DNA of 10,190 bases, taken from the IMG/VR virus record IMGVR_UViG_2740892233_000002. One strand, given 5' to 3'. A model generated the notes under the pieces. It made no database searches. It had not been told where the DNA came from and saw nothing but the letters and a program-made list of their open reading frames with translations. This DNA is from a virus. Its lineage: Duplodnaviria; Heunggongvirae; Uroviricota; Caudoviricetes. Of the stretch, positions 8,627-9,314 are shown in pieces. The first letter of the stretch is position 1, and the number at the start of each line of letters is the position of its first letter. Both the position numbers and the translations under genes were made by a program.

Positions 8627-9311
8627 CAAGTAAATCCGGTAATTTATCCCCTGCCCGCGCACACTGATTTGCCCCCTTAGCAATAAGGGTTTTCAGATGG
8701 TCAAGATGGCGCGGTGTTAAATCAGGAAACTGTCGCTGCATGGATAAAGGGATGGAATCAAGCGTACTGGATAACGCCATTGCCAGCTTACTGAGGGCAA
8801 AAATACAGAACCCGGTGTCAATCAGTTTTCCTTTTGACACCTCATTTTTTAACTGCTGTGTAACAGCCTGTTCTGCTGTCAGTTCCCATCTGGCAATAAG
8901 CAATTTCTCTTCATAGTCTTCTTCGCTATCGCCATCAGGCACATCGTTTTTACTTCTTCTCAGATACGATATGTAAAAATCGCGCCAGGCATCCAGATCC
9001 AGTTGCCCTCGCTTATTCGAGACCGGGGCACCCGGTAATTTCTGCAATCTGCGAAGCTGGCGATCGGTCAGACTTAAATGCCTGGCAACTTCAGTCTGCG
9101 NNNNNNNNNNTTCCTCATAGTCGTCTTCGCTATCGCCATCAGGCACATCGTTTTTACTTCTCCTCAGATACGATATGTAAAAATCGCGCCAGGCATCCAG
9201 ATCCAGTTGCCCTCGCTTATTTGATATCGGGGCACCCGGCAATTTCTGCAATCTGCGAAGCTGGCGATCGGTCAGACTTAAATGCCTGGCAACTTCAGTC
9301 TGCGTAGCCAC
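8598..9311 (-). CDS. Nu1: Terminase small subunit Nu1-like; as written the ORF holds a tandem duplication of the N-terminal ~68 codons across the N-run (about 169 aa if only one unit is real)
   Basis: GTG at 9309..9311, TAA at 8598..8600. C-terminal half VSKGKLIDTGFCIFALSKLAMALSSTLDSIPLSMQRQFPDLTPRHLDHL...LPDLLDEYI matches recalled lambda Nu1 (AFCTFVLSRIAGEIASILDGLPLSVQRRFPELENRHVDFL...). N-terminal domain is HTH-like but diverged from lambda. The 3' end overlaps the A start. Confidence 0.75.
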   Translation of the reverse strand: MATQTEVARHLSLTDRQLRRLQKLPGAPISNKRGQLDLDAWRDFYISYLRRSKNDVPDGDSEDDYEEXXXXQTEVARHLSLTDRQLRRLQKLPGAPVSNKRGQLDLDAWRDFYISYLRRSKNDVPDGDSEEDYEEKLLIARWELTAEQAVTQQLKNEVSKGKLIDTGFCIFALSKLAMALSSTLDSIPLSMQRQFPDLTPRHLDHLKTLIAKGANQCARAGDKLPDLLDEYIRATTE

Positions 9312-9314
9312 TCC
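8907..9314. repeat. Two tandem 204-bp units (8907..9110 and 9111..9314) with the N-run occupying the last 10 positions of the first unit
   Basis: 8907..9100 vs 9111..9304 align at a constant 204-nt offset with ~8 mismatches (~96% identity); 204 = 68 codons, so the reading frame is preserved if the N-run is exactly 10 nt. Confidence 0.85.
9101..9110. other. Run of 10 N at the junction of the Nu1 tandem units
   Basis: Ten n; occupies the position homologous to 9305..9314 (Nu1 RBS/start region). Confidence 0.95.

What the first reader, a model, noticed from the sequence alone, without database searches (positions are those of the whole stretch)
8907..9314. In-frame 204-bp tandem duplication of the Nu1 N-terminal DNA-binding domain, with an N-run exactly at the unit junction
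Units 8907..9110 and 9111..9314 are ~96% identical at a constant 204-nt (68-codon) offset, so the small terminase would carry two tandem HTH domains if the sequence is taken literally. The N-run sits precisely where the first unit would hold the counterpart of the RBS/start. This could be a real domain duplication, which would change how TerS binds cosB, or two alleles from related prophages whose overlapping contig ends were scaffolded in series.
Basis: seen in the sequence. Interest (0 to 1): 0.6.

Follow-up and report, generated by a model that had tools for sequence, protein, structure and literature searches.

The report
Scaffolding artefact, not a terminase duplication
The apparent doubling of the small-terminase DNA-binding domain comes from two slightly different copies of the same gene segment, from two different prophages of one E. 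coli genome, joined in series across a 10-N scaffold gap, so it is ordinary and not biological.

Summary
The repeat is in the sequence as described. Positions 8908-9100 and 9112-9304 are 193 nt at a 204-nt offset, with 7 mismatches (96%), and a 10-N run (9101-9110) sits at the junction.

It is not a gene duplication, for these reasons:
- The window is a scaffold of five short-read contigs separated by four identical 10-N runs, and every run sits at a break in synteny.
- In the closed genome of E. coli E2865, and in at least 14 other closed STEC genomes, 8598-9100 is 100% identical to the small terminase (TerS) gene of one prophage. The 415-nt contig 9111-9525 is 100% identical to the TerS start and cos site of a second prophage, 2.1 Mb away in E2865.
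- Both E2865 TerS genes are 510 nt (169 aa) with a single N-terminal domain.
- In all 40 closed E. coli genomes sampled across 1,169 matching records, both units map onto the same single 204-nt stretch.
- No protein among 5.8 billion clusters covers more than 72% of the literal 237-aa product.
- The head-to-tail junction is absent from three public DNA collections.
- Three contig ends stop exactly 64 nt after their last allele-specific base, which looks like a de Bruijn-graph signature.
- The in-frame offset is simply 194 nt of overlap plus 10 Ns.

Interest is very low.

The parts
8598..9100 (-). 3' end of the long contig p3 (672-9100). It carries the small-terminase (TerS) gene from partway through codon 3 to the stop, as allele A.
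   Evidence: 100% identical over 503 nt to the TerS gene of a prophage at 914335-914837 in closed genome NZ_AP018808.1, and to at least 14 other closed STEC genomes. The annotated CDS there is 510 nt, 169 aa, WP_000235451.1.
8908..9100 (-). Repeat unit 1 (allele A, TerS residues 4-67).
   Evidence: translation.
9037..9100 (.). Last 64 nt of contig p3, exactly identical to 9241-9304. The contig stops 64 nt after its last allele-specific base (9036).
   Evidence: longest repeated suffix is 64 nt; last mismatch at 9036.
9101..9110 (.). 10-N scaffold gap between contigs p3 and p4.
   Evidence: It is one of four identical 10-N runs, each at a synteny break.
9111..9525 (-). Short contig p4 (415 nt), allele B. 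It holds TerS codons 1-67, the ribosome-binding site, cosB, cosN and part of cosQ.
   Evidence: 100% identical over all 415 nt to 3060218-3060632 of NZ_AP018808.1, a different prophage 2.1 Mb from allele A. It is only 97.3% identical (11 mismatches) to the allele-A prophage.
9112..9304 (-). Repeat unit 2 (allele B, TerS residues 4-67). At the protein level it differs from unit 1 by V29I and E63D.
9309..9311 (-). GTG start codon of TerS as annotated in RefSeq for the identical sequence.
   Evidence: The CDS ends at L003 12201, which corresponds to window 9311.
9315..9461 (-). cosB belonging to this TerS type. The motif CATGTCCGGTT occurs three times exactly (9359-9369 +, 9389-9399 +, 9447-9457 -), with a one-mismatch copy at 9352-9362 (-).
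   Evidence: 4 matches against 0.20 expected, and 0 of 200 shuffles reach 4. The position relative to cosN was worked out from the sequence.
9462..9525 (.). Last 64 nt of contig p4 (cosN region), exactly repeated at 9628-9691 in contig p5.
9526..9535 (.). Second 10-N scaffold gap, between p4 and p5.
9536..9627 (-). Lambda-type cosB fragment at the start of contig p5. It belongs to a third prophage type.
   Evidence: It is absent from the allele-A and allele-B prophages, where p5 aligns only from 9628 on. The whole of p5 matches 2503610-2504264 of NZ_AP018808.1 at 99.5%, next to a 181-aa TerS that matches the full Pfam Phage_Nu1 profile.

Best explanation
The 'tandem duplication' is a scaffolding artefact of a short-read assembly of an E. 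coli strain (STEC-like) that carries several near-identical lambdoid prophages.

Contig p3 (672-9100) ends inside the 5' part of the small terminase (TerS) gene of one prophage (allele A). The assembler could not extend it, because the next bases are shared with other prophages. A 415-nt contig, p4 (9111-9525), represents the same gene segment plus cos from a second prophage (allele B). The scaffolder placed p4 after p3 with a fixed 10-N spacer instead of recognising that the two overlap by 194 nt at 96% identity. The same thing happened at the next gap, where p4 and p5 share 64 nt of cosN.

The real gene in each prophage encodes a 169-aa TerS with one N-terminal domain. The in-frame 204-nt period is 194 nt of overlap plus 10 Ns, a one-in-three coincidence.

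Shown here: the mapping of each piece to a different prophage, the single-copy state in closed genomes, and the absence of any two-domain homologue. Inferred: the assembler behaviour, namely a de Bruijn graph with k of about 65 and placement by read pairs.
For: 1. The window has four identical 10-N runs, and each coincides with a discontinuity.
   - p1 (1-130) is an inverted copy of 9998-10127 with 2 SNPs.
   - p2 ends with 60 nt of an IS66-family element end, while p3 resumes exactly where the intact prophage continues after window 601 (L003 3767 to 3768).
   - p3/p4 and p4/p5 are flanked by duplicated sequence.
2. 8598-9100 is 100% identical to one prophage of closed genome NZ_AP018808.1, at 914335-914837. 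9111-9525 is 100% identical to another prophage, at 3060218-3060632. The 15 closed genomes listed first for each query are the same 15. p4 has 11 mismatches to the allele-A prophage, and p3's last 660 nt have 15 mismatches to the allele-B prophage.
3. TerS is annotated as 510 nt, 169 aa, in both prophages.
4. With 8907-9314 as query against 5,426 closed E. coli genomes, all 40 rows sampled evenly down the ranking of 1,169 records place the two query halves on one 204-nt stretch of the record. The top-ranked place has 98.2% mean identity, not the roughly 100% that a true A+B tandem would give.
5. A junction pattern (unit end, 0-30 nt, unit start) matches the window itself. It finds nothing in GTDB species-representative genomes, IMG/VR or JGI metagenome contigs.
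6. The literal 237-aa product finds 73 relatives among 5.8 billion clusters. None covers more than 72% of it, and most full-length close relatives are 167-172 aa. The four longer ones I read (P0008, P0039, P0064, P0068) are frameshifted or have a different single N-terminal domain.
7. p1, p3 and p4 each end in an exact 64-nt word found elsewhere in the scaffold. Each stops exactly 64 nt after its last allele-specific base: 66 to 130, 9036 to 9100, 9461 to 9525.
Against: - No reads or depth data are available, so the source strain itself was not examined.
- The source assembly was not identified in any collection searched.
- The 5' starts of p4 and p5 do not show the same 64-nt signature, so the assembler model is incomplete.
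- One search shows only 40 of 1,169 records row by row. Its '80% coverage' count is uninformative, because the tool joins the two overlapping pieces into one place.
Confidence: 0.96

Rival explanations
1. The source strain really carries a tandem in-frame duplication of the small terminase (TerS) N-terminal domain, and the 10 Ns merely cover a short unresolved stretch at the junction.
For: The offset is a multiple of three, and the literal ORF stays open through both units. Unequal crossing-over between prophages is mechanistically possible (my own general knowledge).
Against: - The two units are not copies of each other. They are exact copies of two different prophage alleles that sit 2.1 Mb apart in the closed E2865 genome.
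- p4 continues into cos rather than back into a gene body, so it behaves as a parallel allele and not as an inserted unit.
- No tandem was seen in any closed genome sampled, in any public contig or in any protein cluster.
- The frame depends on the arbitrary 10-N length.
- Three other gaps in the same window show the same kind of mis-join.
Confidence: 0.02
2. The N-runs are masks laid over real bases of a contiguous sequence, so the flanking sequence is truly adjacent and the duplication exists in the record.
For: The tool documentation says that some stretches in one collection are masked as runs of N.
Against: - All four N-runs are exactly 10 nt and each coincides with a switch between different prophages or with an orientation flip.
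- Three of the contig ends next to them carry the 64-nt exact-overlap signature.
- Masks over a contiguous sequence would not be expected to sit at synteny breaks.
Confidence: 0.01
3. It is an artefact, but of a different kind. p3's tail and p4 come from the same locus, and the 7 differences are consensus errors from collapsed multi-copy reads rather than two true alleles.
For: Many prophage copies per genome match this region, up to 8 places per genome.
Against: Both versions exist, base for base at 100%, as separate prophage alleles in the closed genomes listed. So there is no need to invoke consensus errors.
Confidence: 0.01

Closest known systems
Scaffold-gap duplication artefact: overlapping ends of repeat-derived contigs joined with a fixed N spacer in short-read assemblies of multi-prophage E. 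coli
   Same: - A fixed 10-N spacer at the junction.
- The flanks are near-identical alleles of one locus.
- Each flank maps to a different prophage in closed genomes.
- Contig ends sit at a constant 64-nt distance from the last allele-specific base.
- The pattern recurs at every gap in the window.
   Different: Nothing in the evidence departs from this. Only the assembler and the reads are unknown.
Lambda gpNu1, the lambdoid small terminase (Pfam PF07471 Phage_Nu1), with its cosB site (R3-I1-R2-R1)
   Same: - The real gene encodes a 169-aa small terminase (TerS) lying directly upstream of, and overlapping, the large terminase gene, and downstream of cosQ-cosN-cosB.
- Residues 61-150 match Phage_Nu1 at 67 bits (cut-off 30).
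- It is 47% identical to the lambda-type Nu1 of prophage C over residues 73-164.
- cosB has three or four copies of an 11-nt motif. The copy nearest cosN lies at bp 50-60 from the cohesive end, where lambda R3 lies (bp 50-65 according to PMC9026076).
- The start codon is at bp 196, against 191 in lambda.
   Different: - The N-terminal 70 or so residues, which are the repeated unit, show no sequence similarity to the lambda, 21 or N15 DNA-binding domains.
- The motif (CATGTCCGGTT) is unlike the lambda R sites.
- It therefore probably has a different packaging specificity.
- There is one N-terminal domain, not two.

Membership tests
Scaffolding/assembly artefact | A run of N of fixed, conventional length exactly at the junction | tested here: met
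   Four runs of exactly 10 N, one of them at 9101-9110.
Scaffolding/assembly artefact | The sequences on the two sides of the gap derive from different genomic loci | tested here: met
   The p3 tail is 100% identical to a prophage at 0.91 Mb, and p4 is 100% identical to a prophage at 3.06 Mb, of NZ_AP018808.1. The top 15 closed genomes listed for each query are the same 15.
Scaffolding/assembly artefact | Finished (closed) genomes of related strains show a single copy | tested here: met
   TerS is 510 nt in both prophages. Both units map to one 204-nt stretch in all 40 sampled records.
Scaffolding/assembly artefact | Contig ends fall at assembly-graph branch points (constant k-mer-length overlaps) | tested here: met
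   Three contig 3' ends finish in exact 64-nt repeated words, each 64 nt after the last allele-specific base. The 5' ends do not show this.
Scaffolding/assembly artefact | Reads do not span the claimed junction, and depth is consistent with one unit per prophage | not testable with these tools
   No reads are available and the source assembly was not identified.
Genuine tandem domain duplication in TerS | Uninterrupted sequence across the unit junction | tested here: not met
   The junction is entirely N.
Genuine tandem domain duplication in TerS | The same arrangement is seen in independent genomes, contigs or proteins | tested here: not met
   There are 0 junction matches in the genome, viral and metagenome collections. 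No protein covers more than 72% of the two-unit product.
Lambda Nu1-family small terminase (PF07471) | Match to the Phage_Nu1 profile above the gathering score | tested here: met
   67.4 bits against a cut-off of 30, but only residues 61-150 match, at profile positions 73-163.
Lambda Nu1-family small terminase (PF07471) | N-terminal winged-HTH DNA-binding domain homologous to that of gpNu1 | tested here: inconclusive
   There is no sequence similarity. The AlphaFold model (pLDDT 78; about 80-86 over residues 1-50) has a strand-helix-turn-helix-wing-helix layout. Foldseek's best hits are MerR/excisionase-type winged HTH proteins, but only at E of 0.4 or more.
Lambda Nu1-family small terminase (PF07471) | Gene lies between cos and the large terminase gene and overlaps the latter | tested here: met
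   Annotated context in the closed genomes, and ORFs 8598-9311 and 6917-8683 on the minus strand of the window.
Lambda Nu1-family small terminase (PF07471) | Repeated TerS-binding (R) elements in cosB between cosN and the start codon | tested here: met
   CATGTCCGGTT occurs three times exactly plus once with one mismatch within 9352-9457, against 0.2 expected. Binding itself was not tested.

The most novel reading that the evidence does not exclude
The source strain really carries a small terminase (TerS) with two tandem N-terminal DNA-binding domains. It would have arisen by unequal recombination between two prophages, and the 10 Ns would only hide a few junction bases. Such a protein could bind cosB with altered stoichiometry.
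Probability: 0.02. Interest if true: 0.45.

Novelty: not a real feature. Interest (0 to 1): 0.03.

Why it matters
The feature has no biological significance. Its practical relevance is as a warning. A literal reading of this scaffold gives a false 237-aa 'double-HTH' small terminase and a false double cos site. Gene callers run on such scaffolds can pass these products into protein databases. The whole window should be treated as a chimera of at least three prophages, so no conclusion about gene adjacency across any of its four 10-N runs is safe.

Tried and rejected
- **Junction pattern scans.** I scanned GTDB representative genomes, IMG/VR and JGI metagenome contigs for a head-to-tail junction (unit end, 0-30 nt, unit start). 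All three gave 0 hits. The pattern does match the window itself, so it works. The scans also failed to locate the source assembly.
- **The '80% coverage' count.** It reports 1,166 records, which at first looks like support for a tandem. I rejected it because the tool joins the two query halves even when they hit the same subject bases. The record spans are 204 nt, not 408.
- **Longer homologues.** The four I read (224, 203, 207 and 235 aa) might have been two-domain proteins. They are frameshifted or carry a different single N-terminal domain with an upstream start.
- **PDB sequence search with TerS.** Only chance-level hits.
- **Foldseek on the predicted model.** It points to MerR/excisionase-like winged HTH proteins, but only weakly, at E of 0.4 or more. 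I do not rely on it.
- **N-runs as database masks.** I considered whether the N-runs cover real sequence and rejected this, because all four coincide with synteny breaks.

Full report
**Observation.** The repeat is present as described. Tandem Repeats Finder reports 8911-9305 with period 204, 2.0 copies and score 658. The repeat finder reports 8908-9100 against 9112-9304, 193 nt at 96% identity and spacing 204. A base-by-base comparison at offset 204 shows 7 mismatches within those 193 nt (8910, 8919, 8958, 9018, 9021, 9023, 9036) and no similarity outside the block. Exactly ten Ns (9101-9110) sit at the junction. Read literally, minus-strand ORF 8598-9311 encodes 237 aa, with XXXX between two copies of residues 4-67. 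This is far beyond chance. Note, though, that the 204-nt period is 194 nt of real overlap plus the 10 Ns, so the in-frame register depends on the length of the spacer.

The window contains four N-runs, all exactly 10 nt: 131-140, 662-671, 9101-9110 and 9526-9535. They divide it into five pieces: p1 1-130, p2 141-661, p3 672-9100, p4 9111-9525 and p5 9536-10190. Every gap is a discontinuity.
- p1 is an inverted copy of 9998-10127 with two SNPs.
- p2 ends with 60 nt that match the end of an IS66-family element (ISEc22) inserted in one prophage of a closed genome. p3 resumes at the very base that follows window 601 in the uninterrupted sister prophage (L003 3767 to 3768).
- p3/p4 is the finding itself.
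- p4/p5 is flanked by a 64-nt, 100% direct repeat of the cosN region, 9462-9525 and 9628-9691.

**Mapping to closed genomes.** 8598-9100 (unit 1 plus the rest of the gene) is 100% identical over 503 nt to a prophage at 914335-914837 of E. coli E2865 (NZ_AP018808.1), and to at least 14 further closed O26/O103-type STEC genomes. The 415-nt piece p4 is 100% identical to 3060218-3060632 of the same chromosome, a different prophage 2.1 Mb away, and the top 15 closed genomes listed for p4 are the same 15. p4 has 11 mismatches to the first prophage, and p3's last 660 nt have 15 mismatches to the second. So the two 'units' are not diverged copies of each other. They are exact copies of two alleles that exist separately in this lineage. 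In both prophages RefSeq annotates a 510-nt, 169-aa 'terminase small subunit' (WP_000235451.1 and WP_000235436.1) with a single N-terminal segment. The two proteins differ by V29I and E63D, which are the same two differences seen between the units in the window translation.

p5 begins with 92 nt of lambda-type cosB that neither of those prophages has. All of p5 matches a third prophage at 99.5%, at 2503610-2504264. There it lies next to a 181-aa small terminase (TerS) that matches the full Pfam Phage_Nu1 profile. The scaffold therefore strings together pieces of at least three prophages.

**Does a two-unit arrangement exist anywhere?** I found none.
- With 8907-9314 as query against 5,426 closed E. 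coli genomes, all 40 rows sampled evenly down the ranking of 1,169 matching records place both query halves on one 204-nt stretch of the record. The top-ranked place has 98.2% mean identity rather than the roughly 100% a real A+B tandem would give. The tool's '80% coverage' count is misleading here, because it joins the two pieces into one place.
- A junction pattern (unit end, 0-30 nt, unit start) matches the window itself but nothing in GTDB representative genomes, IMG/VR or JGI metagenome contigs.
- The literal 237-aa product finds 73 relatives among 5.8 billion protein clusters. None covers more than 72% of it, and most full-length close relatives are 167-172 aa.
- The four longer proteins I read are a frameshifted C-terminus (P0008) and mosaics with a different single N-terminal domain and an upstream start (P0039, P0064, P0068).

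**Assembler signature (inference).** p1, p3 and p4 each end in an exact 64-nt word that recurs elsewhere in the scaffold. Each stops exactly 64 nt after its last allele-specific base: 66 to 130, 9036 to 9100, 9461 to 9525. This is what a de Bruijn-graph contig does when it runs into a shared node, and it would imply k of about 65. I could not reconstruct the logic of the 5' ends, and I do not know which assembler was used.

**What the gene really is.** It is a Nu1-family TerS on the minus strand, lying directly upstream of and overlapping the large terminase gene (ORF 6917-8683).
- Pfam Phage_Nu1 matches only residues 61-150 (67 bits, cut-off 30).
- It is 47% identical to the lambda-type Nu1 of prophage C over residues 73-164, with nothing alignable before that.
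- tblastn against phage genomes gives the same picture for lambda, 21, N15 and phi80. Full-length relatives appear only in Escherichia phage PhiR12_2 (98%) and some Pseudomonas and Aeromonas phages.
- An AlphaFold model (mean pLDDT 78) gives strand, helix 4-10, helix 15-22, loop and helix 38-54 for the N-terminal part. Foldseek's best matches are MerR/excisionase-type winged HTH proteins, but only at E of 0.4 or more.
- 'DNA-binding winged HTH' is therefore plausible by position and fold, but it is not shown.

[quoted passage not shown] A one-mismatch inverted copy lies at bp 145-155 (4 matches against 0.2 expected). The start codon is at bp 196. Lambda R3 is at bp 50-65 and the Nu1 start at bp 191 (PMC9026076). 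The complex cosB layout of three R sequences is described in PMC4669245. The architecture is lambda-like, but the motif and the N-terminal domain differ from the documented lambda, 21 and N15 specificities.

**Verdict.** I put the probability of a real duplication at about 0.02. Only reads or an amplicon from the source strain (297 bp against about 501 bp across 8850-9350) could overturn this.

Noticed in passing
window 9462-9535 and 9628-9691: The second 10-N gap (9526-9535) creates a false double cos site. A 64-nt, 100% identical cosN/cosQ segment occurs on both sides of it, with two different cosB types in series. It is the same artefact as the finding.
   Followed up: yes
window 1-140 and 9998-10127: The first 130 nt are an inverted copy (2 SNPs, at 63 and 66) of the YlcI/YnfO-gene region at the other end of the window. 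This piece is 100% identical to the allele-B prophage of E2865. It is an alternative-allele contig attached in reverse orientation through a 10-N gap.
   Followed up: yes
window 602-671: Contig p2 ends with 60 nt (GTAAGCGTGC...) that match the end of an IS66-family element (ISEc22) interrupting the tail gene U in one E2865 prophage. After the 10 Ns the sequence resumes exactly as in the uninterrupted sister prophage. An IS-interrupted copy and an intact copy have been mixed.
   Followed up: partly
window 67-130, 9037-9100, 9462-9525: Three contig 3' ends each terminate in an exact 64-nt word repeated elsewhere in the window. Each ends exactly 64 nt after the last allele-specific base, which suggests a de Bruijn assembly with k of about 65.
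   Followed up: partly
window 9315-9461 and 9111-9311 (-): This cosB carries CATGTCCGGTT three times exactly, plus one near copy. The copy nearest cosN sits at bp 50-60 from the cohesive end, as lambda R3 does. The cognate 169-aa small terminase (TerS) has an N-terminal domain with no sequence similarity to lambda, 21 or N15 TerS. This may be a further lambdoid packaging specificity class. I did not find it named in the two Feiss-lab papers consulted (PMC4669245, PMC9026076).
   Followed up: partly
window 9536-9627: This is a lambda-type cosB fragment with R2/R3-like CGTTTCC motifs in opposite orientation. In closed genomes it sits next to a 181-aa lambda-type Nu1, not next to the TerS present in this window.
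   Followed up: yes
window 672-9100: The long contig p3 switches its best match. 672-5692 is nearly identical to E2865 prophage B (1 mismatch). 5693-9100 is much closer to prophage A (14 mismatches against 59). Either the source prophage is a natural mosaic, or p3 is itself chimeric.
   Followed up: partly
proteins P0039, P0064, P0068: Some E. coli TerS proteins share this C-terminal half but carry a completely different N-terminal domain (…FLLNKSDMASSIGISVQAFDKWG…). This illustrates exchange of DNA-binding domains within the family.
   Followed up: no
window 9882-9911: A small 15-nt tandem repeat (AGAACAACAACCCGC, 2.1 copies) lies inside the 64-aa YlcI/YnfO-family ORF (9872-10066, +). It encodes the basic N-terminal stretch KNKTRRTTTRN.
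   Followed up: no
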